The translations under genes were made by a program, and so were the position numbers. A stretch of DNA of 60,608 bases, filler included, from Sluysia triapertura (taxonomy: Eukaryota): assembly GCA_046118255.1 (NCBI GenBank). It is 5 parts of 5 records of this genome, joined end to end, with 100 filler letters (N's around TTAATTAATTAA, not from the genome) between each part and the next. Parts side by side here need not be neighbours in the genome. Positions count along the whole stretch, not along the records: positions 25,789 to 37,043 come from JBJNIA010186713.1; 4 more parts are not named here. One strand, 5' to 3'. This document shows positions 1,646 to 59,748 of this stretch, in pieces; position 1 is the stretch's first letter; each line of letters opens with the position of its first letter. The notes below the pieces were generated by a model. It was not told the origin of the DNA. It saw only the letters and a list, made by a program, of their open reading frames with translations, and ran no database searches.

Positions 1646-3200
1646 CAGTGGTCTTTACACTTTTTGTGCTGCAACCAACTTTTCCAGTCCAATTTTTTTC
1701 GCGATCCCTGAGGACTGAAATAAGAATATTAGAGTAAATTTTTGTAATAAAAAAATTTTTAACACCAAACAATTAAAATATATTTAGTAAGAACATCCAA
1801 TCTTGGTTCTACTTCGGTCTCAGTATTAATTCCACATCTTTAAAATTCGATCGATATTTTGTCTTAATATAAGTCAGTGTCGAAAATGATTTTTCACGCA
1901 AATAAGTAAAGGCAAAAGGAAGAATAGAAAGTGTAACAGTGGATAGTCTGTTTTTACACTATCCCAAAAGGAGCTTAAGTTTTTTCTGAAAAATTTACTT
2001 TCAAGTTCAAATCACTGAAAAATTCTGAAAACTCTTCTTGAGCTTTGAGTGAGAGATGATTCACTTTTTCTATTCCAATATCAAATAGTTTATAAACCGA
2101 CAAGAATTGGTTAGCATCTAATTCTGGCATAAGATACTTTTGAAAAGGCCTGTCAAGTGGTCGATTACCAGTGGCTTCATTACATAAAAATCTACCTAAT
2201 TTTCTTGGATGAAATCTTCCATACATGTAAACACTTCATATGAGGAAATCTCAAATTTTTCTATCCATATACTTATTTCTTTCACGAATGCTTCAACTTT
2301 TGAAATCCATTTGAAAATATTCGAGATTTCTCCTTGTAAAGACCAATTTAAATCATTCAATTTTTCAAAAATAACAAAGAATCCACCAATTCCGAATTAC
2401 TTTCGAACAGAAATTGCATTACCTCATTCTTTAATAAAATCAGTCTTTTTAAAGTTTTGCCTCTTGATAACCATTTTACTTCCGCATGGAGTAAAAGAGA
2501 TCTAAACTCTGAATCCATTTCTTTATATAAGTTGGCAAAAAGACGGATATTAAGGACACTACCTTTAATAAAAGTTATAATTTTCGTGGAATTTTGCAAA
2601 ACTTCACATAATTCCGAAGAAATATTTTGCCGCCAATGCTGCAGTGTGGCAAAGTAATATGTCTAACGTGAAAGCCAACATTTTTTCCTATCATTTTCAC
2701 TGCTCCGTCAGCACAAACCCCAACGCAATCTTCCCACTTTAACCCAACTTCTTCGGGAAATTAATTCACTTTAAGAAAAATTGTTTCACTTGTTGTGAAG
2801 CCCTCTAATCATTATTAAAGCAGTATCTGACTTATTCTAATAAATGCGCTTTACCTGAAAAATCAGTAAGTTCGAATCGCCTATTTTGAACTACCTTTTA
2901 TTCTAAAAAATTTAACTTTTCAAATTGATCTTTGCTAATATCTCCAAGTCATCTACTAAATGCTGAATCCGAAAAAGGAATTTTTTCAATTCATCTGAAA
3001 ATTTGTGGCCATGAATAATTTCGGTCATTTTAACCGCTAATTGTAAATGGCATTTTTCTCTTTGCAATTAAGTAGGACACCTCACCAGTGCTTGTACATG
3101 TTTAGGGTTTTTCTGTAACTGTTTTTCCATTAATCACTGTTGATATCGCAAAAGACGATGTATTCTAAATTGATAAGCTTGTAATAAGTGATAATTTTGA
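1646..3200 (-). mobile_element. Decayed hAT DNA transposon, Buster/ZBED8/SCAND3-like transposase pseudogene, one terminus visible
   Basis: Minus-strand fragments RLFANLYKEMDSEFRSLLLHAEVKWLSRGKTLKRL and LPFAFTYLREKSFSTLTYIKTKYRS are typical Buster-family motifs. Terminus CAGTGGTC at 1646 is preceded by ATTTATAC, fitting the nnnTAnnn Buster target consensus. Many frameshifts; right boundary approximate. Confidence 0.85.
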
Positions 3201-9486: not shown

Positions 9487-10170
9487 CAGGGTGTCCCAAA
9501 AGTAACCGAACCTCAATTTAAATAAAAATTAGATATCAAAAACGACAAATTTAATAGGTACATTTATTATTTACAAATGTTCAAAATACCTTGAACGACA
9601 TCCTTTGACAACATTGCGACATATTCTCTGGCAAGTTTGGTTCCATTCGTGATGAATACTTAGTTTTAGTTGATTAAATGTCCTAGGCTTTTTAGCATAA
9701 ACGGCGTTCTTTGGAACTCTTCATAGAAAAAATCAGGTGGTGTCAGATCTGGGGATTTGGCAGGTCATTCGATTGGTCCTTGGCGTTCAACTGTTTCATC
9801 AAGCCACTGCCGAGCATTTTTGGTGTAGAACGCAGGTGCTCTATCTTGTTGAAACTGAAGATCACCAAAATGGGAAAACTCATTAACAATAGGAATCACT
9901 TTACTTTTCAGCATATCAAGGTAACTGTTCCTTCAAAGAAGAATGGGCCAACTAGGCCAATGCTGCCGATTCCAGCCCAGACTGTGACTCCAGGAGAATT
10001 GAGTTCCGTTTCAATAATACGATTGGGATTCTAACTGTCCCAATAAACACAATTGTGACTGTTAACATGCCTATTCAGTCCTTAGCTGCATCTTTAAGAA
10101 TGAGGGTCCGAAGCGAACGCTGAACAATAAGCAATGACGTCGGAAAAAAATCAAGTCATTCAAGAAGGAA
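9487..10170 (-). mobile_element. Decayed Tc1/mariner-superfamily transposon (rosa/maT-like)
   Basis: TA followed by TIR CAGGGTGTCCCAAAAGT at 9487. Minus-strand motifs VTVWAGIG..GLVGPFFFEGTV, FQQDRAPAF and E*PAKSPDLTPPDFF (WPPRSPDLTPxDFF consensus). Confidence 0.85.
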
Positions 10171-14721: not shown

Positions 14722-14821
14722 NNNNNNNNNNNNNNNNNNNNNNNNNNNNNNNNNNNNNNNNNNNNTTAATTAATTAANNNNNNNNNNNNNNNNNNNNNNN
14801 NNNNNNNNNNNNNNNNNNNNN
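14722..14821. other. Assembly gap with artificial TTAATTAATTAA linker
   Basis: N-run with a central all-frame-stop linker; the same structure occurs at 25689, 37044 and 48882. Confidence 0.97.
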
Positions 14822-17092: not shown

Positions 17093-17309
17093 AGCTAATG
17101 ATAAAATAAGATTAGAATTAGTGTGCAATACCGAATTTTATTAGTATTCTTAAGTATGGAATATTACGAAGCACGTCGACACAGTTATCGTAAAAATTAA
17201 TTATTTTAATTAATTTTTATAATTTAAAATTAAATTTATATACACTCAAACCTGTTTTTGTGCGGTGGATAGGGACCGCATAAAAGAAAACTCATAAAAA
17301 ATCACATAA
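17093..17309. repeat. ~220-bp direct duplication of 18081-18298, including the left end of a Tigger-type MITE
   Basis: Near-identical GCTAAT..ATAAGATTAGAATTAGTGTGCAAT...CACTCAAACCTGTTTTTGTGCGGTGGATAGGGAC at both sites. Confidence 0.85.
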
Positions 17310-18229
17310 CAATAAAAAATTATGTCTGCATACATAGGAAGATTTTATTGTTTATTATTTGTGTTGCTTGTATTTTATTACGTTGTAAAAAATAATTTAT
17401 TGACAAATAAAATATCTTTATCTACAAGGTTTATTAGCATAATCACACCTAAGTTAAAAGTTATTAAGAGACCATCGAATAAATAAACACAAACAATCGG
17501 TTTTATATTAGTTTAGCACTTTGTAATAGAAAAACCATCATACGTCTTTTACCTAGGCTAACACATTTTAATAAATTTTGTTAGGATAAATTCAGATGAA
17601 AATTCGCTTGAAACTAAAACATCAGCAATATCAGAATTTAAGTAATATATAATTTGGAATTTTAGTAAAATTGGGTTTGTTTATATTCGATTGTTTCATG
17701 CTAAACAACAAATTATTACAATAATTTATCAAATACTATTTTATAACAATATATTTTCAACTTATAAATTCAACTATTCTTTTATAACAATATATTTCAA
17801 AAAACGAATTGTTGGGTTTGGTTACAGATGACGAAGAACATGAGGGTTATAATTCATTGTATAAAAATTGAATAAGTATCACTGAAGAATTAAAATGAAA
17901 CATTAAGATGAATTGTGATAGCAAAATAAGTGCATAAAATATTTAAATCAAAATAAAAGAATGAAAAATACGAAGAAAGAACCCTTTATAATGTCTTATT
18001 TGTTAAACTATGAAAGTAACGTTTGTTAATTAATTTAATTGTTTAATTTCTTTAATTTGATAATTTATTGAAAAATGTTTGCTAATTATAAAATAAGATT
18101 AGAATTAGTGTGCAATGCTGAATTTTATTAGTATTCTTAAGTATGAAATATTACGAAGCACGTCAACGCAGATAACGTAAAAATTAATTATTTTAATTAA
18201 TTTTTGTAATTTAAAATTAAATTTATATA

Positions 18230-18384
18230 CACTCAAACCTGTTTTTGTGCGGTGGATAGGGACTGCATAAAAGAAAACTCATTAAAAAATCACATAAAAC
18301 TTCACGAATGCGTATAAAATATAGTTTTAGAAACAATATAAAAAAACGTACAAATAAAAAATCTCATAAAAACAGGTTTGGATG
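18230..18384. mobile_element. Tigger/pogo-type MITE with TA target duplication
   Basis: TA|CACTCAAACCTGTTTTTGTGCG ... CTCATAAAAACAGGTTTGGATG|TA. Related ends at ~17243 and 41524. Confidence 0.75.
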
Positions 18385-22048: not shown

Positions 22049-24050
22049 CAGGGCCGGATCTAGAGTTATGAGCGCCCCAGGAAAAGCAAAATTTGGCGCC
22101 ACTTCACACAGGAATATACAAATTTACTGCGATTTAAAAAAATAGTTAAAAAAGGAAAAAATTCAATAACACAGTTTCAAATTAATTCTTTTTGAAAATC
22201 AGTTTGTAAACAGTTTACAATACTAAAATAATCAGCGTTATGACCTTTATTTGGTATTGTTAAAGAAAAAAATTTATTGCTTGCTAAAAAGAAGTCGATG
22301 TCTCATGAAAAATGATCGAGTTTAATTTATAAAATCTAAAAAAATAATGAATGTGAAAATATATTTTATTTTACATCGACGACCCTCGAAATTGGCTCTT
22401 TATCCGCTTTGGCCGTAACTCTTGTTTGAATACATAGATAAACCAAAGGTATAGGTAATAAAAATCAGCTGAATTAAATATAGCAATCCAATATGCGTAT
22501 AAATGTAATGGATAAATATTTTTAAGTAAACTTGTACCTACTCGATTACTATTTACAGACCAATCAAGTAAAGAATAGAAACTTACTTCATCTGCAATTT
22601 AATTGGTCAATTATTGTTTATTTTGCATTTCATAAAACAATCTTTGATATTTCCAATGTCAAGTCGTAAGTTTCCCAACGATATGTAAAATATTTTTTCT
22701 AATCATCCGTATTGCAGTAGGCACAATTAACTTTGTTAGACTTCATTTTCTATACTTGGTAATAAACCCTTGTTTCGTCTTCAAAACCCTTATTTTAAGG
22801 TTCAGTTAAACAATTATTTACCGACTATGAAGTTATGCCTCGCTATCTTTGATCCAAATTATATTTCTACTAAGATATACACTTTAATTACATTAGGCAA
22901 TACATAAATCCATGTTTTATTACATTGTTTAGTAAAATATTTATTTAATCTCATGTTTTTCCAATACTTTTTACACTTTTCAGTAAAACTCGTTGAATCT
23001 CTTTGAAAACTTGTCGTATCACTTTGCCTTTTGATTTTGATCACAGCAGTAACCAAGTAAGTCGTTTCTAAGATTTGCACATCACATGGAATAGTGGATG
23101 AACCAATATATCCTCTTCTTAAACATACTAATACTTTCACCGATTGGCTCTTAACTCAAAAGAAAAAAAATAATTTTTCCACTCTTTAAATTAAGTAGAA
23201 CTTTCTAAAAGAATATTCTTCATAAAGTTATTTATCAAATCTCAATAATCACATTATTCCAAATAGTAAATAATAACAATAACTTTTAGAATATCGTGTA
23301 TTTATTAAATTAAAACAATTATTTAATTATGCAACCATTTTTTATAGTTTCTCCAATAAAATATTTCGACAATTTTGATTATAGCGTAAATCTACGTTTT
23401 GATTAAATGCAGTTTTATCAAGATGGTCGAACAAATCAAAATACTAACACTTTGGCAATATCTAATCCCAAGCTATCACAAAATTCTTCCAGGTTCATTA
23501 GACCATGAGATCCAAAGAGCTTCTGAAATTTCTATATAAAATGAAATATTTAAAGAAAGTTTTTATCTTATCATTAAATATTGATTATTCATTTTTTGTA
23601 TGCAATCGTACGAGTAAAAATTAATATTAAAATTATTATATCTCTTACGTAATAAGTTATTTAAAAAATAATTAATTTTATTATTTTTCGATAATTAATT
23701 GTGCAATTTTTACCTATTCCAGCGAAATTTAATGATTTGTCTCTTAATTTAACAAAGCTTATGATAAGATTTTTACTTTACAAATCAAAACATGTTCTTG
23801 TATTCCGAAATAATTACTTGAAGATGAAAATCATAATTGAAATTATTGCGTAAATAATTCTGTAATTCTTCTAAATTGATCTTTTCAGTTTTTGTACGGT
23901 CCAAAATTCCAAATGTATCAACTAGCATTTCCATTGCTTTTAGTAATTAATCAATAAATTGTAATTTTGAATAATTTTGTTTTTATTTATTTTTAAAATA
24001 TGCCTCATAAATTAGACTTGATTGTTCCAGGAAACATTGAAGCATTGATA
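22049..24050 (-). mobile_element. hAT (Tip100-like) terminus with possible decayed transposase
   Basis: Terminus CAGGGCCGGATCTAGAG..GAGCGCCCCAGG at 22049. The first ~300 bp are shared with the 32731 copy. Minus-strand LEEFCDSLGLDIAKVL (~23450-23500) is weakly hAT-like. Extent beyond ~22360 is uncertain. Confidence 0.5.
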
Positions 24051-25688: not shown

Positions 25689-25788
25689 NNNNNNNNNNNN
25701 NNNNNNNNNNNNNNNNNNNNNNNNNNNNNNNNTTAATTAATTAANNNNNNNNNNNNNNNNNNNNNNNNNNNNNNNNNNNNNNNNNNNN
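25689..25788. other. Assembly gap with TTAATTAATTAA linker
   Basis: Read directly from the sequence. Confidence 0.97.
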
Positions 25789-27556
25789 ACGTCAAGTTAA
25801 TCATGGTAGGAATGAAGTAATTTCCGACGTAATAGGCCATCTTTTAAAGTTCGATCGAAATAGTTGTAAAAGGACTTATACCAAGTTCTTATGTGAAAGA
25901 AAACTTATTAAATTAGCTTTAAAATTAAAATTAGATGATAATTCCAAACGCCCCAAACTCACTAAAACCCCATATTGTTATAAGGAGTACATAAAAACTC
26001 CAAAAATAGGTCTTCACAGGTTACTACCCAATATATTGAAGCTTTAATTGGTGTTGAGGAAGTAGTACAAAACTTATTGAAGCAACAGTTAATAGATAGA
26101 CTAACTAATTTCTCATCTTTTCGTTTAGCTCCCACTATTATAGCGTTGGTTTTAGCTTGAATAGTTATTAGTATATTATTGTAAAATAATTTCTTAACTT
26201 ATTTATGGTTACTTCGGAAGTGTCTATGTTTCTTATTAAACAAATGCATAATAATACTGATAATATTTGGAATCCACTATAATGTGTAGGCAGTTCTAAT
26301 TCTGTATTGCGTTCGTATATTGGTGATGGCATTATTGGTGATAATGGTAGTCCTGGAGGAGTAGCATAAAATCTATTATTTCTTGGAATTGAATAATGAT
26401 TATCGACATCGTTATTAGAATCAGTATTAGTATACTTACGTTTATTCATAAGAAACATCATAATCATTAGTAAGGTTATTATTAATGCAATAATAAATAA
26501 TGCAGCTGCGATTACTAAAATAATTATTGACGGATCCTTTTTTAAAGTATCTATAATCGTATTTGGTCCTTTGATTCCCTGTATAGCGAAATTTTAGCTT
26601 GATGTTGGATGAATATTATTATGTCTATCTTCTGAAAGTAAATAGTCCTTGCATGTTGCTACTAGTTACTCTATGTTTGGTAGAACATGTCTATGTAATT
26701 CCCATAACTAAAATTAAGTCTTGCGGGTTTGATGCATATGTACTGTGCTTTAATATTTATAGTTACCTTAATTTGAACTTCTGTGTCGAAATTATAAAAA
26801 TCCAAATATTTCGATTTGTAAATTCTTTGTGATGCGTCCGTAATTGTTATTAATGTTAGTTAGGTAAGTAACATCATATTTGATATCCTATTATTAACTC
26901 TTGTTATCTTATTGCAAGTAATTACATAGTAAATGGTAAATATCATATAAATTAAGGTAAAAGTTAAGAGTGCAACTATAAAAATGTTCCTTATTTATGT
27001 CCTTACTTATTTTCTTACTTAATTCGGTAGTAGAATTCATGACTCTATTAGGTGATATTGAACTTACTGTTTTATTTATATCCTTATTCTTAAAAATATC
27101 CATGAAATCTATTGTTACTGACTTATTATATAGTGTAAACGCCATTATTGTGGTATATCGAATTGAATGTTTGCATTTAAAAATATCATTTATTATTAGA
27201 GGTTTCTCTATTATCAATGGCTCAAAATATATGCAATATATATCAAAATTATAATCAGGAATTTCGTTTCTGTTATCAATTTCAGCAGTCCAAAATTTAT
27301 TAAAAGTATTAGTTAGAAAAATGTTCTGTTTGGTATTAGTGTAACTTGTTAAATTCGCTGGATATACCATAGTTGTTAATTGAAATAGAATTAGCATAAA
27401 AGTTATCGCATAAAGATATGTATTATTTGAAATTGTTCTTGTAAACATTATACTACTATTACTATTATCAGTAGTATTATTATCATTATTATTATTATCT
27501 GATCCGATACCTGAAGTTGAAGATACCGTGGTATCCCACCAATCAAGATTTCCCAA
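25789..27556 (-). pseudogene. Env-like membrane glycoprotein polyprotein (frameshifted)
   Basis: Signal-like YLYAITFMLILFQLTTMVYPA; Cys- and NxS/T-containing ectodomain; TM IIILVIAAALFIIALIITLLMIMMFLM followed by NKRK; Tyr/Pro-rich tail; second signal-like FQILSVLLCICLIRNIDT; Cys-containing continuation (INCCFNKFC). Confidence 0.6.
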
Positions 27557-27559
27557 TTT

Positions 27560-27891
27560 GGTGTTGGTGATGGCGGTAAAACCGGATTTAATGGAGAAAT
27601 TTGATAATATTGTGGTTGTACTGGTGGTATTGCTCTTGGCATCGGAGGTAAAACCATTTGAGGCAGTACTACATGCGTGCCTAGTGGTATTTTAAGAAAT
27701 CTTAATCTTCCGTGTATTACTGTATTTTCTAATTTACTTAGCGCATCCATACCTAATATGATATCATATTGGCATATTTCCCAAGCTAATATTGTTATAA
27801 ATAGATCCACATCTAAGATTGTTAGTTGACATTGTAGTAGTCCATTAAATAGAATGTGTGAGCCATCTACTGCAAATAATCGTATTCCTGC
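27560..27891 (-). pseudogene. C-half of retropepsin-like protease plus Pro-rich linker
   Basis: Same frame after a single TAA: AGIRLFAVDGSHILFNG...YDIILGMDALSKL, then LPPMPRAIPPVQPQYYQISPLNPVLPPSPTP. Confidence 0.75.
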
Positions 27892-28576
27892 TTACTGTAA
27901 CATGTTAACTTCCAAAGCATATAAAACGTTATAATTAATTATAGTATTATTTGAACCTGTGTCTATAACTAATCGTGCCCATCTCTGATTGAACTTAATA
28001 CTCTGAACCAAATGGTTTTGTATGTTAAAAGAAGAAGTTATCATATTTATTGTACTTATTGGTTTATCCTTTGTTATATCTGTATCTGTTAATTTTGACG
28101 GTGTACTTAATGACTTTGATGGTTTATCTCTATCTTTAATTCTTGGTCTAACTTTTAATACACTTTTGGTAACTTTTCTATCTCTTAAATTATATTCATC
28201 ATTAGGTGCCAATTTACATCGATTTACATGCACAACGAAAGTTTCCGCATTCATATCATTAGGTTTCTTTATATATAAATTAGTAGAAGTTGTTTTCATC
28301 ACTTCATAAGGTCCTTTAAATGGTTTATGTAATTTTGGAGAATATCCTGGTTTCGCTATTGGATAATCTACTAATACTTTATCTCCTATTTTAAAGTTAT
28401 GTTCATTTGCTTTTTTATCATAGTTATCTTTATAAGTTTCTTGGGTATAACGTATTTGCAGACCGGCGCGTTTCCATGCATCTTGTAAATTCTCTCTCAT
28501 AATAGTTACATATTCTGGGGTTTCCATATATTGTGATGAAGGTGGAACCCAATCTAAATCTACTGGCAGTTTTGCA
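27892..28576 (-). pseudogene. Gypsy integrase C-terminal (GPY/F) region fused to the N-half of a retropepsin-like domain
   Basis: ORF 27892-28527 extends upstream to about 28576. DTGS at 27952-27963. Confidence 0.85.
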
Positions 28577-30695
28577 GTATTCAGTTATTTTAATTAGTCA
28601 ATTATCCTTTTACAATAAATCAGCACCAGCGTTTTAAATCCACTCAGTGTATTAGCAATCCAATTACAAGTCGTTTCGGAAGCTTTTGATCAAATTTTCA
28701 TGAAAAAGTAAATTATTTTATTTTAAGGAGATTTTGACTTTTTATAATCCAAGATCATAAAATACACTTAAAATAAAATTTAAATATCATTATTCTATGG
28801 ATCGAGATATACTGAGGGAAAATTTTCTACTCAAATTAATTAGAAAACAAATCAAAGATCCCAAAATGGATCTAAATATTTTTGTTCTCTTTTACTTTCT
28901 GTTATCTTTGTATATAATATCGTAAATTTTGTTGATGTTAGTTAATAAAATTAAAATAGTTAATATTGTTAAGTTTATGACCCTCCAAACGTGTTAACAC
29001 ATTATAATAAAACTCTTAGTTCATAAGTTACAGAGACGCCAATTATACGTTGCAGGACGTTTACTGTAACCGGACCCTGCTCTGTTTTTATATTGCCGTA
29101 GGTTTATTTTTAATAATAATAATAATTATTATTATAATGATTATAATAATGATAATAAATAAATGGTTTATTTTAAAAAGGAAACATAAAAATTGCTTTT
29201 AGACTACAAAGAAAGCTCACTTTTTTCTTTAAGTTGATTTATTTAATCTAAATTTAAAATAGTTTCCTTTTTTGTAATTAATGTAATTTTTAGAAAAATT
29301 ATTATTATTTATGTGAAAATTTAATTCTTAAAACTTCATAAAACATCGAAATGTGTTGGCAAATTAAAATGAAGCTTACAACTAATTTATAATTGTGTAA
29401 TAAGTGTGATTAATTTATGAAATACTGATGTACCTATTTTAATTATTTGGTTCAATGTTACTTCTGACTGTGAATTGATCGAATTGAATATTGGAATAAT
29501 TTAAATGAAAAAATTATTTAATTCGATAATAGATATGCTTTATAAACTAATTTTGATAAAATTTACTTTGAATAATGCAAAAAATGAAGTATATGTGAGG
29601 AATTTTATAGAAAATACTAAGTAATGCATTAAGAAAACATCATCCAATTCTACAAAAAGTAAATCAAAGGTAAATTTCTGACATTTTATAATCTACTTAG
29701 AAGCTATTCATAATTCTCTTACAATCTTAAATATATATTACGGACCGTGTTTTACATCATCAATTTTGATATGATACTGATCACATTGATAACAACAATC
29801 ATTTATTGCATTGAACAAGTTTACAAAACTGAACATTTCGAGTTTCACGACTAAGACACAGAAGTAAAAGTGAAAATGTTACATAAAAATGTCCGACTTA
29901 GATTTATTTGCTTGAAACCAGTTAGACTCAATATTAGTATGTGTTTAATTTGTTAAATCTGTTTGATATATGCTTCGATGTTTTAGCAATGAAAAACGCC
30001 CTTAACAATTATTATGCTCGTTTCAAATAAATGCCGACATTCATGTTTACCACATACTCCACCTCCAATTAATCAATTAGTTTGAGTAAATTATTCTCCA
30101 TTAATCCATTAATATATGATTAATTACAAATGACTAACATGCGATTCACGCTACTAGTTTATGTTAGTTTGACATGTATCTCTGATATATAAGCAACATC
30201 AATAATCACTTATTACCTGAAAACATTCGATCTAAAATAACTACAGAAGTTAACTAAGTTAACACGACCAATCTGACAATGCTGAAATGAGTCTTATGCT
30301 ATCAAAAACTTTTTCTATTGGATTGTATTATGTAACGATCTTTTCGAATACTAATTATTTCGCATTACTTTAACCATAGAATTAGTTCTGGTTCAGAATC
30401 ATATAATTGAAAAGAAACCACTTGTGTTCCATGAATTTTCCAAAGCTATTGAACTCCCAATGATAACTTATTGACATACTTTGAATATAATACCATAATC
30501 ATTGCTTATAATTTGTATGACTGTCTTCATTATAGACTGATGACTCCAATTCGATTATTCGATTATTTTTTTAAGCTGATAACAAAGTCATACTTGTCCA
30601 AATATGAATTTTTCACGAAAATGAAGTATATGATATTCAGGATTTCTCGCCAAATAATCGGACATATGATTTAAGTATAAGCTTCTTTTATTTTT

Positions 30696-31605
30696 CCCCA
30701 GACTTAATTATACCTGAGTTACAGCCCACCCACCCCCGAAATTCAAACAAAATTAATTTTTGAACTTAAATATTTTCAAATAAATTTCAAATCTGACATA
30801 CCGGTTGACATTTAAATCTCCCATAGAATTTAATTCTTTATTTGTTTGTGTTATTTTTTTCAACTATTTCAAGTTTCATCTTCTACAGCAACATGTTTGA
30901 GTAAGTTTAGTTTAGTTTTTAATTTCTATTCTCTATAAGGCGCTAAATAATAATGTTAAATAATAGTATTGCTGGAAAAACTAAAAACAATTTGTCTTTC
31001 CACCGAAACTTACAGGAATGATTGAGCCTCTAGAGTTTTATTTTTTAGACATTATAAGTTTCTCACCTGAGTAATGGAAGATCACGTTCGATGGAAGAAG
31101 GTAATCAATTCAGGCGGTATGAAAGATTGTTCATTATGAAAATGCATTTCTGAAGCTTCAGTCAACTAAAAACACCAGTTTAAATTTTAACGTTACAATA
31201 TTCATGGCAAAAATCTGGATACTCATCTAAATTGATCGAAAAAATACACGTTTTCAGGAATGTTAATGAAGTCAATTTTAATTTTAATTATGAGAGGTGT
31301 TGGATGATGACTTTGAATTTTTATATGCGGTGTTTATTGTAATGATGTATGCTTTGAACATTTTTTGAGAATATTTTCACTGAAAATTTTATATACAGAA
31401 AGCGTTTTTAATAAGAACAAATGTTTTTCTTAAATTGAATAAAATTTACAAAATAGCTTTCAATACTGTGGGCGGAGTCAAATATAGAATAATAGGGATT
31501 AAGTTATGTCTATCAAAAGACTTTTTATGCTAAATTAAAATATGAAACCCGTCTGAAAATATTCCTAACTATTCTAAGAATATTAAGATAAAATTAAGTC
31601 TGGGG
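30696..31605. mobile_element. Possible non-autonomous DNA transposon bounded by 14-bp inverted repeats
   Basis: CCCCAGACTTAATT (30696-30709) and AATTAAGTCTGGGG (31592-31605) are perfect reverse complements. No TSD or transposase recognised. Confidence 0.4.
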
Positions 31606-32423
31606 GAGGGAAATGAAAAGTTTCTCTTTTCATACTTTTTGATATTCTAATTATATGAAAAGTTTGGTCAAGATCTGTGAGTTTACCTTGGGAATCTCCA
31701 TGTTTAAGTTATAAATTATAATCACTATGGATAATTATACTAAAGGAGTGCAAAGTAGGGGGCTCAAAAATTTTAAAATTGTTAGATTTTACAAAGAAAA
31801 TTTTGTTTTTTCTTTGAATATTTTTTTGTTGTTTTTTACCAATTCAAGTAATTCCATCATCTAATTCCATAATTTACGTTCTTGATGCAGAACAAGCATC
31901 AAGAATAAAATTTCAGAGCAAATATACTTACAAATTCATAAAGCAATTATACGTGTGCATTAGAGATGTTATTCTATCTGATATTCTGCTATTTTTTAGC
32001 TGTTAATTAAAAAGGAAGTTAGTAGACTTCTATCACAATCGCGAAATAGCGGCTATTAATTAACAGCGACATGTAAAAAAAAGAATATGATACTTGGTTT
32101 GCATCTTTATTGAAGGAAAATAACTTTAAAAAAAACTTCTAGCATTTCCCCAAAATGTATGATGAAATGCGTATTTTCCCAGGGTGAATAAAACAAGTTT
32201 TACAGTATAATGTAATAAATTTTGAAAGTTTTGTGTTATCAGAAAAGAAATAATTACCAAAAAACTAACTTTATTTTGAAATTAATTTAGTTTTACATAA
32301 CAATTAATGCGACATTACAAATATGAACTACAAATCCATTTCGACGACATTAGTGCTTGATTAAGAAATTAAAACAAATATTCTCTGACTAAACTTATGG
32401 TTTCATCTTTAATGAAGACTTAA

Positions 32424-32460
32424 CCCTTTGCGGTGCTCTGTCGAGGCAGCCCTGACGCTA
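32424..32460. mobile_element. Solo piggyBac-like terminus
   Basis: TTAA followed by CCCTTTGCGGTGC; partner end not found. Confidence 0.4.
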
Positions 32461-32730
32461 AATATTACATAAATATAACATAAACGTAATTAAATTCGAT
32501 TTGAGTATGTTTTTTTGAGTCAGGCATATTTAATTGTGAAAATTTTGTGTTTTCGCTGGAATTAAATAGGACCTGTAGAGAGGAATCAAAGGAAATCAAA
32601 TAGGACAGGCATCTGTCAAGGATTTTAAAATTAATATCTTTATGTACATCGAATGTAACAGTTTTATTTTATAACAATGAAATCTGACATTTAATCAAAC
32701 ATATGTATAATAAATATAAAACAGTGGGAT

Positions 32731-33175
32731 CAGGGCCGGATCTAGGGTTTTGAGCGCCCCAGGCAAAACACAATTTGGCGCTATTTCATACAAGAATATA
32801 CAAATTTACTGCGAATTACAAAAAAACAGTAAAAAAGGCAAAAAATCAAAATTACACAAAGAACTGTGTAAAAAAATGTATTTAAAAAGTAATACAATAT
32901 TTATTTACTTACAAGCGATACAACATAATGAGCGTATTTGAAGTTTGAGCGAGAACTTTAAAAAGTAAGTTATGCTATTCCTGTAACATACAAGATTCAA
33001 TAACACAGTTAATTAAATTAATTTTTGTTGAAAATCAGTTTGTAAACAGTTTACAATGTTAAAATAATTAGCGCTGTGACTTTTATTTGGTATTATTAAA
33101 GAAAAAATTTATTTCTTGTTAAAATAATCGATATCTCATGAAAAATGATCGATTTTAAAAAAATAATGAATGTTA
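32731..33175. mobile_element. hAT (Tip100-like) terminal fragment, second copy of the 22049 family
   Basis: CAGGGCCGGATCTAGGG..GAGCGCCCCAGG. Colinear with 22049-22360 apart from an internal indel. Confidence 0.75.
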
Positions 33176-33712
33176 AAAAAATGTCCGGCTTGAAAAATGT
33201 TTACTAATAATAGTTTTTACGTGCTGCTGCTGCCGTTGCTGCCGTTGCTGCCATAATTGTTCTCCAACTGCACAACTTCTATTAATACGAGATTAATTGA
33301 CAACATCATAAAATCACAAAGAATGGAGATTATTTTTATCTCCATATTTCATCATATTTACGTGACTTTGATCTGGAACGAAAGGTCACCATATATATTA
33401 CCAGTTGAATAAAAATGTACAAAAAGTTACAAAATTAAATTTAAACGAATATTTTACTATTTGCTTTATAAAACGTATTTAATAAAATACGATTCATTAA
33501 CGAAAATTGAGCAGTATATTCTGTAAGTTAATTCAATTGAATAAATTCGTTTAATATTTGATTTAATTATATTAATTTTCGTTAAAATTCGCTCAAGAAG
33601 CGATGCGAAATCAACTGATTACAAATAATTTCTTAGTATAACCAAAATTAGATGTTACTATTTATAATATTTAAACACAGGTGTCGTTATTTTGTCATTA
33701 TTTTATTCTTAG

Positions 33713-33950
33713 GTCGATCAAATATTAAACTGGCTCTAGCACTTTATGGATATAGTAATTACAGTGGCTTACGAAGTTCAAAGAATACTAGCAGATCATG
33801 TATGGAATTTTGTAGCAGTTTCAGAAGTCCAGTGAGTTCTGTTAGCAATTCTATTGGTCCATTATCGACAAATAAAACTTCAGAAGAAATTCCACCCAAA
33901 TCCAAATCTTTCATCGATAATTTAGTATTAACCGATCCCAGTAATAACAA
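33713..33950 (+). CDS. Coding exon of an unidentified Ser-rich host protein
   Basis: Acceptor cttag|GT at 33712/33713, open frame, donor AA|gtagt at 33950/33951. Phase 2 joins the exon at 34075. Confidence 0.5.
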
Positions 33951-34074
33951 GTAGTTTAAAAATTTCCATTGTTGATTATAGAGTGAAGTCGTTATGAGAC
34001 GAAATATTCGCGTATTATGTTCTAAATTAAACTATAACATAAAATATCAGAATTTACTTGTACTATAATTTTAG

Positions 34075-34327
34075 ACATAAACATAGATCACAAACACTCG
34101 ATAGACAATTTCTAGGTCCTATCAGCGAAAAGTTGTCATTAATAGGATCTTCAAATACTGCAACAAATCAAAATGAACATACTAGCACGAATGAAAAATC
34201 GCATAATCATGACTTTGAGGAGCGACCTAATGAAACTACAGATAATGGCACTAAAAATAGAACACAAACAACTGACCAATCAGAAGCGGATTCAAATTTA
34301 AATGAATCATTTAATAGTTCTATTCGA
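34075..34327 (+). CDS. Next coding exon of the same low-complexity protein (HKHRSQTLDRQFLGPISEK...NSSIR)
   Basis: Acceptor tttag|A at 34074/34075 and donor CGA|gtatgc at 34327/34328. In frame with the previous exon. Confidence 0.55.
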
Positions 34328-35939
34328 GTATGCATATTTATTGTTATTATTATTATTATCATTTTAAATGTCATTCATGCGATGAATCATATTGCCTTAT
34401 CGAATTATTAGTCATAGTTGAAAAAATTGACATTCATTTATTATCTTATTTTTAATTACTTTTTTTTATTGCTGTGCTAACTGATTGTAACCTCTTTCTA
34501 ACTCGTATGTATAAACCAAGAAAAGTAGACTGAATGAAAAATTAACACTTGTTGCACTCACCATTTAAAAAATGAACAATTTTGTGTCGTGTGTTTCTAT
34601 TTTTATTTGATGACATTTAAAATTTTATTTTTTATCATTAGTTTTTGAAATTTTAAGACAAATTTTAATGCTTGTAATAGTTTGACAATTTTGTTGTATA
34701 TGTTGGGTTAATGGGAGCTACAAATTAAGAAAATGTTTACTTAACTTTGTAATGATATTTAAACTAACAAACAAATTATTGTTTTTTATAATTTAGTGGA
34801 GCACGTGATGTGATCTCATTACATTTTATTTAGAAGTTGCGAATATTAAAAGAAAATGGCTTAAGTGGTATAGCTAAAATATAATTTGAGTTATTAATAA
34901 TCCTATAAATTTTTATTACATTTGTGTTAAAAATATCCACCTTTTTTCTTTTAACAGGGCATTATTTAACGAATTCTTGATACGTAACAACAACTTCTAA
35001 ATCAGCCAGTTTTCTCAACGATATTTTAGTAAATCATAAATCAATCATCAAAAGAGCGATCTTCTCGATTCTGGAAGTAACTTAGTGTGAACATCTATTG
35101 ACACATGACAACAATTGTTTTCTTTGCAGAAATAAGGATAGATACAAACACATTGTAAAGAATTTCTTTCTAGAGTTAATTTCATTTTATAATTTAAGTT
35201 GAAAATAATGATTTTTATGCAAGAATTTATTCGGATTTGGCCATGATTCTAAAACTTCACCAGAAGACTCGCATCGACGATTTTTCATAAACGAAATGAA
35301 GCAAGACTGAACATCCAAACCGTCGTAAAGCATATTTTCGACAAAAAAAGGACCTAAGTACATCACGGTAAAGTTTTGTATTGAAGGCGCGATCATTCAG
35401 GACCCAACGTTTGCTTACCATTTCGACTGGTAAATTCTAACATTGCAAATTGCTTTAGCATCCACATTTCGCGAAGCTCGAAATTCAATAGTCATCAAAC
35501 ACACACGCACACACACATTCTGAGTCACCATTGACCATAACATGAGCTGAATGAGCACTATATAAATATATAAAATGTATTATTTTAACACGGCCCACTA
35601 ACTTTTTCATCGAAGTAATATTACCGTGATTTTATTTATAAATTATTTAATTAGTTATGATCTTTATTTGTTTATTTATTAAAATCACCTACATGCAAAA
35701 TTATATGTTCTGCATTCCTGCGAAAGACGCATCTGCGGGATTTCGTACTTAAAACAAGACTTAATCGTTTTATCGGATAATTAGCTTTACATAGATGGAA
35801 TGATAAGTTTTCTTGACAATTCTCTTTATTATTGAAAAATAAAGGAAGTAATATCAAAACAAGGAATTATTACGATGTAAAACTTACTGGATAAGTAAAT
35901 TACAAGTTTATAATACTGAGTAGACAAAAATTTATCGCA

Positions 35940-36315
35940 TTAGATTTTAGTCCAATGCGTTTTATAACTGGTTATGTCAGCTGAAAAATGATGTGAAGAT
36001 GAAGATGTTCTGAAGTTTGCTTCGCATCTTTCTTCACCATGCTTGTAGCTAGCTAGTCCTTGCATAGTAATTCTTATAAACGAAGATACGTTCGTTTAAA
36101 TCTAAAGTCCTTCGGTGTATATTTTAAGAATGAGAGTCCAGAAGCGCACGCTGAACAAAACTCAAGCAATGATGTCAGAAAAAAATCAATATCATTCAAC
36201 AAAAAGCATTCCAAAGAAGGAAATGAATAGTAGCGAAGATAACATAAAATGACATAAAAGAAGAAATTAGTTTTGTCGTTTTTTATTTAAGCTTACAGTG
36301 CTTTTGGACACCCTA
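35940..36315 (-). mobile_element. Opposite (5') end of the Tc1/mariner family seen at 9487
   Basis: 36108-36200 is similar to 10077-10165. It ends in CTTTTGGACACCCTA|TA, a near reverse complement of the 9487 TIR. Left boundary approximate. Confidence 0.7.
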
Positions 36316-36397
36316 TATATCATTTTTACTATGTACTTCTTCGTAATCTTTTTGACTTTCTCATTAATTACGATAATATCATCGTTAATATATTACA

Positions 36398-36453
<56 letters not shown>
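36398..36453. repeat. (ATT)n microsatellite
   Basis: Read directly from the sequence. Confidence 0.95.
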
Positions 36454-37043
36454 GCAGATGAGAACAAGTTCTAGACCTACTGATATTCAACTGAGAAAAA
36501 GCAAAGTTAGTATTTGTTTTGTGCATAAGTATAGCATATATATAATTGCAGTTTCATCGAGTGATATTTATTTATGCATTTAACTATTGCATATTACATT
36601 GTAATTAAATTGTTGTGAAAAACTTTTCTCTTACTCACTTTAAAATTATTCGTAAACAATTAACAAAAACACGACTGAAATCTATTTCAAAAACTTATAA
36701 AAATGCCACATTTAACACAACAATTAATTTTACTTGACCGATTCTTTAGTAATTTCTGAATCTTCGTTAATTGTAAGTCAATTTTCTTGCGTTGCATTGA
36801 AAATATCGCATTTCTAGCCAAAGATTTATTTGGTTTATTCTATAATAATTTCTTCACGAATCTATTTTACTCTATATTTTTAGTCCAATATGAGACCGAT
36901 TTTCTCAAATAATTGTTAATTATATTCTATAATATAGTTGATGTTCCAAAATATGGTATACAAATATTAAATATGGATTTAATAGACTTTAATTCTCAGT
37001 TTAATTAAATACTAGGATTCGTCACAAATTTTAACATTCAAAA

Positions 37044-37923: not shown

Positions 37924-38030
37924 CTATTCAATTTTAAAAGTTTTCAGAATATAATCAATAGATTTACTGTTTTGTTTCATTTTTATAGATTATGGTAAAT
38001 AACAATGAAAAAATATGAATAAATAATAAC

Positions 38031-38541
38031 CTGTCAATTTTATCTTTACTCAGTGTATCAATATCAGAATTATTATGGCTAGGTTCTAAATACGCATCTA
38101 AAGTTTGTGAAATGTCTTCAGGATAATGTTGACTAAGAACACCAGTTGATGTTGATGACATACTCGTTGTCATATTTGAACCAATCATTGGTGTTGAATC
38201 AACATTATGTTTACTACTACTACTTGACATTAGTTTAAGAGATACATTGCGTGTAGCTGTGGGTGTGAATGAATTACGATTATTGAAATTTTGTGGAGAA
38301 TTCAAAGAACTATTTCTTGAATATGTATAATGCATGGGAAAATGTGAATGCTGTATTTGATGTAGTTGCTGCGAAAAACGATTAGAAAGATGATAATTGG
38401 AATGTTGATAGTTTGGATAAAGATGTTGACTACGTATTTGAACCATTTGAGAATAAGGTGGACCACCGTTACCGAGTAGAGGTGTTCCTATTGCTGTATT
38501 GCAAGGAGTGAAGCGTTCATCGTATAAAATTGAAACTCGAT
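38031..38541 (-). CDS. Coding exon of an unidentified host gene (His/Gln/Ser-rich)
   Basis: Acceptor ttaag|AT (phase 1) gives DRVSILYDERFTPCNTAIGTPLLGNGGPPYSQMVQ...; donor AG|gttatt at 38031/38030. Confidence 0.75.
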
Positions 38542-39169
38542 CTTAACATAAAATAATAATAATAATACGTTTATTAACACATTGTGGTAGGAAAATGTAA
38601 AAAATTGTGATGACAGTGCGAGTCACATAGTATATATGGATGGTAGAATGAAGCTGCAAGGGATGACTCGATGGATATGAGGAAATAGGTTATAGAAAAA
38701 ATTGTTGGAATCGGAAAGAAAAAATGTGTCTCAAAAAGTGCGAAGTAGATGTTTAGAGTCTACCACACCATACAACAATATTAGTCTTCATTACTTATTT
38801 CATTTAATTATTTGTTGATTAAACTTTTCTTTTTTCGATTCAACTATGAAGAATACATTAAAAAATAAAAGTTTAATAAAAACATTCAAAGTCTTTTTTA
38901 ATTTATATTTTCATAAACCACCTTCTCCAATCATAATGTACCGGCACAAAACGCCGATGCATTATCTAAATTAATACACTTTTATTTGTATATTTAATAA
39001 CAAATTAAAAATCAATGTACTATTTTAAAAATTAAGCATTCCAAATATGCTAACTACTTTTGAAATTGTTTTGAAAAAAAATTTAAGTTGTGTATCATTT
39101 CAAATATATTAAAATTACTATATCATATAAGTTCTTATACTCAGATAAAAATAAAAAGACAACCAAGAA

Positions 39170-48018: not shown

Positions 48019-48495
48019 TTAATTAATGAATCAATATACTTTCTTTAATATTACATTTTTCATTCAAACTCAGTAGAATTTGCTTTACATTAATATTTAA
48101 TAATAACATTAAATAACATCACCACACAAATGATATTCTGTGCAACATTAGAGAAATAGATACATTGTTATGAAGAAGCAGATCAAATTCAAAATAACAA
48201 CCCCAAATAACAATCGAAAATAATAATAATTATAGAAATTTTTTCATTTAAACAATACCATACTTTTTAATTCTGTGGAATTTTAAACTTCTTTAATTGT
48301 TGATTTCATTAATTGAATTTCCATTACAATGAGAACATGATCTGTCTAGTTGGGCTTATTTAAAAGATTTTATATTCTGCCAATGGTTTTTTGTTACTTT
48401 ACTATTGGGACCATTTTAATTATATTTCCTAATTTTTAAATGTAACCCAAAACAAATTATTTCATAAATTTTATTAAATTACAATGAAAACCAAC

Positions 48496-48881
48496 CAATT
48501 TCAATAGGATTATTATTATTTGCCAAATCCATGTTTAAAAGTGGTCTTACTTTTCCTGCACCATTTATTGGTATTCTAGGAGAAGTATACATTTGTGTAT
48601 TTTTGTAAGATGGATACGGGCTTAAAAATGATTCCGACTTCGATGGATCTACTGAAATAAGTGAGGTTGTATGACCGCGATAATTACTGACACTATCACG
48701 TGGTACCGCAGTATATGCAGATGGAGAATATATAGAGCTGTGCGAATAACGCGGTGATCTAGTATCTCCAGTTACTGTGGATCCCAATAAAGGAGTTGGA
48801 TATATATTATCATGTTCTCCAGCATACACCATTTTACGATTGATACAATCGCATATTCTAGACAAACCATGCGAACAAGAC
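48496..48881 (-). CDS. Coding exon (5' end in gap) of an unidentified host gene; Cys-containing start then Ser/Pro/Tyr-rich
   Basis: Open frame SCSHGLSRICDCINRKMVYAGEHDNIYPTPLLG...NNPIEI. Donor G|gttggt at 48496/48495, phase 1, in frame with the 42690 exon. Confidence 0.75.
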
Positions 48882-49825: not shown

Positions 49826-50835
49826 AAATCCATGCGCATCATTAATATTTTAATCGTGTATGTATGTATATCATGTATGTAATGTATTTAGGAAAAGTTA
49901 TGTAGTTAACTAAAAAATAAATTAAAGTTACTGACAATGTCATTAAACGGTCGGTGCTCTTGGATTTTAGTCAACTTAATTCAGTAAATAAGTAGGGCTT
50001 TACTTTGCATATTAATTGGTAGATTAAATTGCAAATTTTGAAATATCATACTTTATAAAGTACATCACTAAAACTAGCAGTACATTGCAATAGTAATAAT
50101 TTATATACATTATTACATCATTATATTGTTTGAAGTACTTGTTTATACATTTTCTTAATCCTTCACATAATAGAAATAAACATTTATGACATTAATAAAC
50201 AAATAATATATTTATTTATAATTAAATTATGTATTTTATATGATACTATAAACTGCTAATTATTAGTATTATGTTTAACATCAAATAAAAATTTTATATT
50301 GATTTTATTTATTATATAAAACAAAATTTTAAAGTAAATTATTAAAGTAAATAACAAATTTCTTAATTTATATTGATATCGTTAAAAAATTAGAGAAATC
50401 AAAAAATGCCTTTAGTTTTGACAACTGTGTCATTAATTAACCACAGAAAACCCGAATGCAATTAAGGGCACCGCTACAATATACATAAACTATCGGTAAA
50501 TGAAGTTACTTAATAACTTTAATGTAAATTTAGATTTAAATTTGAAACACACATTGCTGATTTCTTCAATTATATAGAATATACAATACAATTTAGTATT
50601 ATTAACCAATTAAAAATCAGAAAATTATTGACTATTGCATATATATAAAACTGTGACATACATGGAAGCAAATTACTAACAAACTACATTTACATAGATG
50701 AAACTTATCCAAACATTATTTATTACCATTAAGTAGTAAATGCACAATTTACATTTGTAATATAATCATATTTTTGTTTTCGATTGTGGATTTTAAAATT
50801 TATATAAATTCACTAAATTGTCAATTTTATTTATT

Positions 50836-51202
50836 ATGGGTCAGTTTACTATTCAAACTACATTTTACATTATACTATTGACAATCAATAATTTTAAATT
50901 AATTTTCTGCAACGATAGTAATATTGAAGAAAATGATATATTCGTATCAAATCAAGCTCAATTATATCTTCATGATGAATCCGGTAGTTATTTTGGATAT
51001 TCTATATCGTGCTTTATTGGCCAAAATAAACCATTTTGTTTAGTAGGAGCACCGAAAGGCTTAGTTAATGATTTTAATACAGATACAATGATACGAACTG
51101 GTTCAGTTTATCGATTATCTTTCGAAGAAAATATTTGCACTAATGTACCAATTACATCAAATGAATTTTCTGAAACAGAAACAAATGAAAAAAATTTTAA
51201 AA
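50836..51202 (+). CDS. Integrin alpha subunit, first coding exon (signal peptide plus first FG-GAP repeat)
   Basis: MGQFTIQTTFYIILLTINNFKLIFC signal-like segment; GSYFGYSI...LVGAPK...TGSVYR...C is the integrin alpha beta-propeller blade-1 signature. Donor A|gtacgt at 51202/51203. Confidence 0.88.
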
Positions 51203-53966: not shown

Positions 53967-54097
53967 NNNNNNNNNNNNNNNNNNNNNNNNNNNNNNNNNN
54001 NNNNNNNNNNNNNNNNNNNNNNNNNNNNNNNNNNNNNNNNNNNNNNNNNNNNNNNNNNNNNNNNNNNNNNNNNNNNNNNNNNNNNNNNNNNNNNNNN
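53967..54097. other. Assembly gap (plain N run)
   Basis: Read directly from the sequence. Confidence 0.97.
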
Positions 54098-59008: not shown

Positions 59009-59188
59009 TTATACGTTATAAAATAAAGTAAACAAACTATCATCTGGGTTAGTTTTACAAAGTGATAAAGATGCTGTAATCTTTTGCATTGTTTTTTGGC
59101 TTTCCTGATGCATTGTTAACCATTCGTTAAAAATGGACTGAAAATTTTCCAAGTTTTCATCTGTCGATGATAACTGAGGGCATTTTAT
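59009..59188 (-). CDS. bHLH transcription factor, exon 2 (IKCPQLSSTDENLENFQSIFNEWLTMHQ...FYNV*)
   Basis: Acceptor aatag|ATA at 59189/59188, in frame after a 32-nt intron, open to TAA at 59009-59011. A further downstream splice cannot be excluded. Confidence 0.7.
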   Translation of the reverse strand: MKCPQLSSTDENLENFQSIFNEWLTMHQESQKTMQKITASLSLCKTNPDDSLFTLFYNV

Positions 59189-59220
59189 CTATTAAAATAA
59201 TTCAATATAAAGCAAAATAC

Positions 59221-59748
59221 TTGGCTTAATTTAAGTAATAATTTAATAACTTTTGCTGCATAATCAGCTTCTCTTAACAAATGCTGATTAAATGCATCAA
59301 CTACTTTCAAGCTAGATACATACTCCACAGAGTTCTTAAGAATCAAACCTTTGTTCATTTTAAGATCATTGTTCATAAAATACTCTTGTGGTAACAATTG
59401 AGAAAGTTTCTCAATTTGAGCATTAATAAAATCGCGTCTTTTTCTTTCTACTCTATTATGAGTTTCCTTTTTGCTTTTCGATTTTTCCCAAGTTATACAC
59501 GTCTCATTCGGTAATGAATTAGAATATGAACATCCCTCATCAAAAGATGTATCCTTTAAAGGTAAAGAAACATGTGCATCATCATTAAGGTAATCAACAT
59601 TCATAGATTCAGTAACATTATGACTATGAGAACGACGTCTTTTCAATGGTGTTCCATTCATAGCTTCCATTTTAACGAAATGTATTTTTTTTTCATGTTC
59701 TGAAGTATTTATTTTGATTAAAACATCTTTTATATTATTATTTGACAT
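59221..59748 (-). CDS. Group-B bHLH(-zip) transcription factor, MiT/TFE- or USF-like, exon 1
   Basis: KKETHNRVERKRRDFINAQIEKLSQLLP...DLKMNKGLILKNSVEYVSSL has the H-E-R basic-region signature of CACGTG binders and a MiT-like NKGxILKxSVxY helix 2. Donor CAA|gtattt at 59221/59220. Confidence 0.9.

What the first reader, a model, noticed from the sequence alone, without database searches (positions are those of the whole stretch)
25789..27556. Two-glycoprotein env-like polyprotein behind the extra protease
Seen, reading across frameshifts: internal signal-like segment, Cys/N-glycan-site ectodomain, long TM helix (~26447-26527) with basic stop-transfer NKRK, a ~50-aa tail, a second signal-like segment (~26220-26272), then a Cys-containing sequence running into the gap. 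Known: SP-G1-TM-tail-SP-G2 is the layout of bunyaviral Gn/Gc precursors, which some nematode BEL/Pao elements captured. Insect errantivirus Env is instead a single F-type protein. Inference: an independently captured envelope in a gypsy lineage, i.e. a possibly undescribed endogenous retrovirus-like group. No sequence homology to a known fusogen was recognised by eye.
Basis: partly seen in the sequence, partly recalled or inferred. Interest (0 to 1): 0.7.

Follow-up and report, generated by a model that had tools for sequence, protein, structure and literature searches.

The report
Decayed retrotransposon with unknown membrane proteins
This is a broken, truncated piece of a retrovirus-like jumping gene in an animal genome; behind its integrase it carries an unusual protein-cutting enzyme and genes for membrane proteins that resemble no known viral envelope, so it may be a new way such elements move between cells, but one damaged copy cannot show that.

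Summary
The coding region is real and lies directly behind a gypsy-type integrase tail and a retropepsin (Pfam RVP_2 above cut-off). The long TM helix with NKRK is confirmed (0 of 5000 shuffles), the second signal-like segment is supported (19 of 5000), and the first is not beyond chance on hydrophobicity (873 of 5000).

Three corrections. (1) The 'gap' is an artificial contig linker, so the second protein is cut after about 143 codons. (2) The protease frame ends in a hydrophobic tail whose stop overlaps the ATG of the membrane ORF (TAATG at 27450-27446; 27 of 819 background stops). This suggests a separate, translationally coupled ORF3, not a pol-fused polyprotein. (3) 'Extra' protease is unproven, because the 5' pol is absent.

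No homologue or fusogen match was found (0 hits in 1.84 billion proteins for G1/TM/tail; Pfam and PDB negative). The host lineage is thinly sampled and single-sequence folding failed even on the protease. Gn/Gc is a layout analogy only.

Verdict: a decayed gypsy-type element with an unusual INT-protease-TM / SP-G1-TM-tail-SP-G2 3' module. Envelope function is plausible but unshown.

The parts
28219..28584 (-). C-terminal part of a Ty3/gypsy-type integrase (GPY/F module); the copy is 5'-truncated just upstream
   Evidence: 33% identity over 121 aa to the C-terminus of gypsy Pol P0001, E 2e-17; Pfam Integrase_p58_C E 5e-4 and SH3_Tf2-1 E 0.07, both below cut-off; tblastn of whole P0001 against the window finds only this stretch
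28033..28218 (-). Basic Lys/Ser/Thr-rich linker joining integrase and protease in one frame
   Evidence: One 230-codon stop-free run 28584-27895
27690..28032 (-). Retropepsin (aspartic protease) downstream of integrase; DTGS at ~27963 and LGMD at ~27756; broken by an in-frame stop at 27894-27892
   Evidence: Pfam RVP_2 26.8 bits vs cut-off 20.3, E 5e-6; gag-asp_proteas E 5e-5 over profile 3-91 of 92
27556..27665 (-). Proline-rich linker, same frame as the protease
   Evidence: Translation
27451..27498 (-). 16-aa hydrophobic C-terminus of the protease frame: possible tail anchor; ATA-repeat-like, so it may be incidental
   Evidence: Mean KD 4.19, 10 of 16 codons ATA; 9 background hydrophobic windows elsewhere look mostly microsatellite-derived
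27446..27450 (-). TAATG stop-start overlap between the integrase-protease ORF and the membrane ORF
   Evidence: ATG is the first Met of the open frame; 27 of 819 background stops are TAATG (79 of 819 with TGATG and ATGA included); the coding path switches frame here
27356..27448 (-). Predicted N-terminal signal peptide of G1 (~31 aa); by eye, no predictor available
   Evidence: Follows the ATG; hydrophobicity not beyond shuffles, 873 of 5000
26528..27355 (-). G1 luminal domain, ~278 codons; clean frame to 26912, then frame changes near 26983 and 26703 and stops near 26862, 26668 and 26596
   Evidence: no family or homologue
26435..26527 (-). 27-aa transmembrane helix followed by basic NKRK
   Evidence: KD 3.41, 0 of 5000 shuffles
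26275..26434 (-). Cytoplasmic tail (57 aa counted from 26443), Pro/Tyr-rich, with YSIP and YATP motifs, no sequons
26220..26272 (-). Second signal-like hydrophobic segment in frame with the tail
   Evidence: KD 2.8 over 12 aa, 19 of 5000 shuffles
25789..26219 (-). Start of a second protein (G2), ~143 codons, frame changes near 26180 and 25980, cut by the contig end
   Evidence: 78-codon open run 26198-25965; no Pfam or PDB hit
25689..25788 (.). Artificial contig linker N44-TTAATTAATTAA-N44; not part of the element
   Evidence: Same linker at 14722, 25689, 37044, 48882

Best explanation
A decayed, 5'-truncated 3' piece of a Ty3/gypsy (Metaviridae-type) LTR element of an animal. The intact element most likely encoded, after the integrase, a retropepsin that ends in a Pro-rich linker and perhaps a membrane anchor, and then an envelope-type ORF3. 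SHOWN: domain order, protease identity, TAATG junction, one TM, decay. INFERRED mechanism: ribosomes stop at the TAA and some restart at the overlapping ATG; the signal peptide sends G1 into the ER; the TM with NKRK stops transfer; the 57-aa tail stays cytosolic; the second signal restarts translocation, and signal peptidase frees G2. G1 would be an attachment or adaptor glycoprotein and G2 the entry protein, letting particles pass between cells. The downstream protease would release itself from integrase and, if membrane-anchored, trim the G1 tail or tether Pol at the budding membrane. The proteins belong to no family that could be recognised here.
For: Coding signal far above chance through the whole region. 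Same strand, no spacer and the same codon-position bias as the integrase-protease frame. Retropepsin above Pfam cut-off. TM and second signal beyond shuffles. TAATG at the first Met, 27 of 819 in background; UAAUG coupling is established in influenza B segment 7 and the retrotransposon SART1 (PMC2699510, passages). Position 3' of integrase is the usual env position in gypsy elements (PMC13524379). The ~409-codon first unit matches the 421-aa Gn-like unit of Atlas virus in size.
Against: No fusogen homology in any search. First signal, sequons and Cys not above chance. ORF3s called env on TM, sequon and cleavage features alone have turned out to be esterases or nucleases (PMC5408684, passages). 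G2 is only ~143 broken codons and may hold an early TM. The G1 frame is ambiguous over ~280 nt. One copy only; LTRs, RT and gag not in view. The hydrophobic protease tail is repeat-like, and a 3-10% chance rate for the stop-start overlap is modest evidence.
Confidence: 0.4

Rival explanations
1. Element-borne but non-fusogenic cargo: G1 is a captured, intronless host-like type I receptor or accessory protein that signals through its tail, and G2 is a small accessory membrane or secreted protein.
For: The tail has YSIP and YATP motifs and 8 Pro in 56 aa. G1 has Cys pairs ending in Y-x-C, spaced 67 and 60 codons apart (positions), recalling Ig-like domains (recalled pattern; the second pair lies in the ambiguous frame). 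Hydrophobic stretch early in G2. Precedents: non-env ORF3s in rotifer elements and multi-domain cargo in planarian Burro.
Against: No Ig or other host family in Pfam for the clean G1 frame. No Trp at the expected Ig position (by eye). The internal second signal is more typical of viral glycoprotein precursors (own knowledge).
Confidence: 0.25
2. G2 is a strongly diverged member of a known envelope class (class III gB/rhabdovirus-G-like, or F), and G1 is an added accessory glycoprotein: an errantivirus with an extra gene.
For: Both Env types seen in 1512 metazoan gypsy elements are F or gB, and gB ectodomains can be led by a TM instead of a signal (PMC13524379). By eye, the single-frame motif WVVTCE at 26033-26016, 61-66 codons after the second signal, resembles the Cys-plus-aromatic strand in the VSV and sigmavirus G rows of that paper's supplementary file 2. 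This is a post hoc lead, not a test.
Against: Pfam and PDB (which should hold VSV G and F proteins; own knowledge) give no hit at E up to 10. Cys spacing differs: the nearest upstream Cys is 17 codons away, against about 9-11 in the rhabdovirus and insect gB rows read. No RxxR in G2 as read.
Confidence: 0.17
3. One reading: a phenuivirus-like Gn/Gc (class II) precursor captured by a gypsy element.
For: Layout SP-G1-TM-tail-SP-G2 and the size of the first unit.
Against: No hit to Gn/Gc families or solved Gc structures. Only 4 Cys in 150 aa of G1 and 5 in 136 of G2, low for these Cys-rich proteins (own knowledge). Known cases are BEL/Pao with env fused in frame to pol.
Confidence: 0.08
4. Not one unit: a host membrane-protein gene, pseudogene or separate insert happens to lie next to a gypsy fragment, with apparent frame changes being introns or chance.
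For: Single copy, so linkage is untested. Consensus splice donors occur (7 in 2.8 kb) and codon signal is weak at 27060-26700. Breaks are denser downstream than in the pol part (1 of 10 in pol, P 0.07).
Against: Zero spacer and a stop-start overlap at the junction. Donor density equals the rest of the contig (about 2.5 vs 2.64 per kb) and only 3 pyrimidine-rich acceptors exist. Isolated stops sit inside continuing frames. The coding path covers the whole 1.9 kb.
Confidence: 0.1

Closest known systems
Env-carrying Ty3/gypsy elements (errantiviruses in the wide sense; Chary and Hayashi, PMC13524379)
   Same: Gypsy-type integrase followed by a separate signal-led membrane-glycoprotein ORF; animal host
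   Different: Those carry one F-type or gB-type Env. Here a retropepsin follows integrase, the ORF has a TM-tail-second-signal layout, the junction is TAATG, and no F or gB homology was found
Atlas virus / Cer13 (Belpaoviridae with phlebovirus-like Gn-Gc; PMC9094657)
   Same: Two tandem glycoprotein units 3' of integrase; first unit about 410-420 aa
   Different: BEL/Pao pol, env in one 2828-aa ORF with gag-pol, detectable Gn/Gc homology. Here gypsy-type integrase, probable separate ORF, Cys-poor, no homology
Burro giant gypsy elements of planarians (PMC6431247)
   Same: Gypsy element with added domains and env next to a protease
   Different: Burro env is F-like and lies in frame upstream of the protease, between gag and pol; here the protease is downstream of integrase and upstream of the membrane ORF
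Rotifer Vesta/Juno ORF3s (PMC5408684) and MDG1-group sORF2/FAST-like proteins (PMC11952523)
   Same: Gypsy elements with membrane ORFs lacking homology to known env
   Different: Those are 210-230 aa or 63-107 aa single proteins; this is over 550 codons with two units and a flanking protease
UAAUG stop-start coupling in SART1 and influenza B segment 7 (PMC2699510)
   Same: Identical pentanucleotide joining two ORFs
   Different: SART1 is non-LTR and couples ORF1 to ORF2; coupling here is inferred from one copy

Membership tests
Metaviridae (Ty3/gypsy) | Integrase with gypsy-type C-terminal GPY/F module | tested here: met
   33% over 121 aa to gypsy Pol P0001; Pfam hits below cut-off. Ginger and Polinton integrases are related (listing of PMC2836005), so this alone is not unique
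Metaviridae (Ty3/gypsy) | gag, then PR-RT-RH-IN order, and RT phylogeny | not testable with these tools
   No RT, RH or integrase core in the window; a protease lies after integrase, which is atypical
Metaviridae (Ty3/gypsy) | LTRs, PBS, polypurine tract | not testable with these tools
   Contig ends inside G2; no purine run of 10 or more in 25789-27560; no second copy in the window
Retropepsin (clan AA) | D-T/S-G catalytic motif and downstream hydrophobic-G-x-D motif; family profile | tested here: met
   DTGS and LGMD; RVP_2 26.8 vs 20.3 bits; this copy has an in-frame stop
Phlebovirus-like Gn/Gc env (Atlas, Cer13) | SP-G1-TM-tail-SP-G2 layout and size of first unit | tested here: met
   TM and second signal; ~409 vs 421 aa; first signal weak
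Phlebovirus-like Gn/Gc env (Atlas, Cer13) | Sequence similarity to Gn or Gc | tested here: not met
   0 hits; one unrelated hit at E 9.5; frameshifts lower the power
Phlebovirus-like Gn/Gc env (Atlas, Cer13) | Class II fold and C-terminal TM of G2 | not testable with these tools
   G2 cut at ~143 codons; single-sequence models failed for G1 (pLDDT 29) and for the protease control (32)
Phlebovirus-like Gn/Gc env (Atlas, Cer13) | BEL/Pao pol with env in the same ORF | tested here: not met
   Gypsy-type integrase; stop-start junction
F-type errantivirus Env | Furin site plus fusion peptide in a single ectodomain; F-family profile | tested here: not met
   No RxxR in the luminal frames read; the only one is in the tail; no Pfam hit. 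G2 is too short to exclude fully
gB-type / class III Env | Domain I cysteine-bridge pattern and fusion loops | tested here: inconclusive
   By-eye motif resemblance but different Cys spacing; Pfam and PDB negative
sORF2/FAST-like fusogens | 63-107 aa, short ectodomain, N-myristoylation motif | tested here: not met
   ~278-codon luminal domain; no Gly in the first 181 aa read (criteria)

The most novel reading that the evidence does not exclude
A gypsy lineage with a third envelope type, neither F nor gB: a two-subunit envelope made by stop-start coupling from the genomic RNA, matured by its own membrane-anchored aspartic protease placed after integrase. This would be a new independent acquisition of infectivity by an LTR retrotransposon and possibly an unknown fusogen family.
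Probability: 0.25. Interest if true: 0.78.

Novelty: new variant of a known kind. Interest (0 to 1): 0.5.

Why it matters
The widest survey I read found only F and gB envelopes in 1512 invertebrate gypsy elements, but it used known env baits and, for some groups, gap limits of 500-1000 nt between pol and env (PMC13524379), so a homology-free module like this could have been missed. If intact copies confirm the layout, it adds a new gene order (integrase-protease-anchor, then a coupled two-unit membrane ORF), a testable case of stop-start translation in an LTR element, and a candidate new fusogen. If G1/G2 are cargo, it is one more case of gene capture by retrotransposons, of modest interest. 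I found no description of this order in paper searches; that library lacks most subscription journals and Repbase-type records, so this is weak evidence.

Tried and rejected
HOMOLOGY SEARCHES. phmmer of the G1/TM/tail frame (428 aa, stops as X) against 1.84 billion representatives: 0 hits; G2 and the alternative middle frame were not in that query. Word-based searches: integrase-protease ORF, longer proteins, 1 of 438 candidates, a generic Pol; integrase tail plus protease, near lengths, 0 of 106. Control: a host bHLH gene from another contig found only 1 relative among 80 candidates, at 46%, so this lineage is thinly sampled and blanks are weak evidence of novelty. Pfam, PHROGs, PDB and phage tblastn: nothing significant for G1 or G2.

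STRUCTURE. AlphaFold2 without alignment failed for G1 and for the protease control; the Foldseek run on the G1 model (0 matches at E up to 0.001) is therefore meaningless. The ESM Atlas and cluster look-up gave no answer.

REJECTED READINGS. A closable scaffold gap; a spliced host gene as the main reading; F-type or FAST-type identity of G1; Troyka (abstract only, nothing bearing on this). Five exact 5-letter motifs and the word protease: 0 occurrences in 7 supplementary files of PMC13524379. The bacterial promoter scan was irrelevant.

UNCHECKED. The original Burro paper was not held.

Full report
Setting. The window is a string of AT-rich contigs joined by a 100-nt linker, N44-TTAATTAATTAA-N44, found at 14722, 25689, 37044 and 48882. 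The 'gap' at 25689-25788 is therefore a contig end and cannot be closed from the flanks. The finding sits at the end of the 11.3-kb contig 25789-37043. Other contigs carry an MITF-like bHLH and a weak integrin-alpha match (E 0.002), so the host is most likely an animal (inference, assuming one assembly). Its lineage was not determined.

What is upstream. On the minus strand one frame is open for 230 codons from 28584. Its first 121 aa match the C-terminus of a gypsy Pol, P0001, at 33%, E 2e-17. After a basic linker comes an aspartic protease with DTGS and LGMD motifs. Read through its single stop as X, it passes the Pfam RVP_2 cut-off (26.8 vs 20.3 bits) and covers gag-asp_proteas 3-91 of 92. 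The whole Pol finds nothing else in the window, so gag, RT, RNase H and the integrase core are missing: this is a 3' fragment. A protease after integrase is shown. That it is a second protease is not.

The junction. The protease frame continues through a Pro-rich stretch and a 16-aa hydrophobic end to a TAA at 27450-27448. That stop overlaps the ATG at 27448-27446, the first Met of the next open frame, which opens a signal-peptide-like 31 aa. TAATG closes 27 of 819 comparable open runs in the window, 79 of 819 if TGATG and ATGA are counted. A frame-switching path chose this point independently under all four penalty settings. UAAUG couples two ORFs in influenza B segment 7 and the retrotransposon SART1 (PMC2699510, passages). 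The alternative is not excluded: both frames are open over 27691-27451, and the hydrophobic end is built largely of ATA codons (10 of 16), like the microsatellite-derived hydrophobic windows elsewhere.

The membrane region. It is coding: open runs of 216, 141 and 78 codons were reached by 0 of 2000 simulations each, and the best path scores 32 against at most -20 in 52 control stretches. Downstream of the ATG the path needs about four frame changes and four stops, so this copy is dead. The TM at 26527-26447 is solid (0 of 5000 shuffles) and has varied codons. NKRK and a 57-aa Pro/Tyr-rich tail follow, then a second hydrophobic segment (19 of 5000). Between about 26990 and 26700 the frame is uncertain and one option adds a hydrophobic stretch; about 75 codons into G2 another frame does too. 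The topology is the simplest reading, not a proven one.

Homology. The G1/TM/tail frame found 0 relatives among 1.84 billion representatives; G2 was not in that query. Integrase-plus-protease searches found 1 of 438 and 0 of 106 candidates. Pfam, PHROGs, PDB and phage tblastn gave nothing significant for G1 or G2. These blanks are weak: a host gene also found only one relative, at 46%, and breaks shorten every query. Single-sequence AlphaFold2 failed on G1 (pLDDT 29) and on the protease, whose fold is known (32), so the fold search says nothing. Two by-eye leads remain untested: Ig-like Cys spacing in G1, and a WVVTCE motif in G2 that resembles the VSV and sigmavirus G rows in supplementary file 2 of PMC13524379 but lacks their upstream Cys.

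How it most likely works. Shown: gene order, protease identity, the overlap, one TM, decay. Inferred: ORF3 is made by termination-reinitiation; G1 enters the ER, stops at the TM and leaves a cytosolic tail; the second signal starts G2; signal peptidase separates them; the pair acts as an envelope for cell-to-cell spread; the downstream protease frees itself from integrase and may act at the membrane. I put this at 0.40. Rivals: non-fusogenic cargo 0.25, a diverged known class III or F Env with an accessory G1 0.17, true Gn/Gc 0.08, chance juxtaposition with a host gene 0.10. A spliced host gene is unlikely: donor-like sites are no denser than in the rest of the contig and acceptors are few.

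Comparison with what is known. Chary and Hayashi (PMC13524379; I read the abstract, section 5 part 1, section 6 part 1, sections 8 and 14, passages, and 4 of 114 parts of supplementary file 2) report 1512 env-carrying gypsy elements across metazoans, all F- or gB-type, including gB in insects. Atlas virus (PMC9094657, passages; a 2026 preprint, passages) has Gn-Gc but is BEL/Pao with one 2828-aa ORF. Burro has an F-like env upstream of its protease (PMC6431247, passages). Rotifer elements show that TM and sequon features alone can mislabel cargo as env (PMC5408684, passages). sORF2/FAST-like proteins are far smaller (PMC11952523, passages). PMC535339 (passages), PMC13238120 (passages) and PMC12440569 (abstract) added nothing decisive. 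The element works like a two-glycoprotein precursor in layout, but fails the sequence test for Gn/Gc and is not filed there. I found no paper describing integrase-protease-membrane ORF in this order in searches; subscription journals, Repbase records, figures and bioRxiv supplements were out of reach and could hold such a description, and F-type Env sequences were not among the supplement parts I read.

Verdict. New variant of a known kind; interest 0.5. The bold reading, a third envelope type with its own maturation protease, has probability about 0.25 and would deserve about 0.78. Intact natural copies would settle it.

Noticed in passing
window 14722, 25689, 37044, 48882 and 53967-54097: Four identical 100-nt artificial linkers join separate contigs; the 131-N run at 53967 differs and may be a true scaffold gap.
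   Followed up: yes
window 59188-59772 (-): MITF/TFE-like bHLH (Pfam HLH E 3.5e-11; best PDB hit MITF, E 6e-9); only one database relative, at 46% identity.
   Followed up: partly
window 50797-51225 (+): Exon with a signal-like start and a weak match to integrin alpha-V (E 0.002).
   Followed up: partly
window ~1980-2660 (-) and ~9700-10100 (-): By eye, remnants of a hAT-type and a Tc1/mariner-type transposase (labels recalled from motifs, not confirmed by any search; seen).
   Followed up: no
window 22049-22274 and 32731-33110: A dispersed repeat shared by two contigs (83-90% identity in 113- and 96-nt blocks); probably a small non-autonomous element.
   Followed up: no
window 17094-17301 and 18081-18288: 208-nt direct repeat, 95% identical, 987 nt apart.
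   Followed up: no
window 28584-27560 versus 27560-25789: Only 1 of 10 inferred breaks lies in the integrase-protease part (P 0.07, counting the ORF junction as a break); may hint that the membrane ORF decayed first, or reflect errors near the contig end.
   Followed up: partly
window 37967-38542 (-) and 48482-48880 (-): Two long Ser/Pro/His-rich open frames, probably host exons, with no Pfam match.
   Followed up: partly
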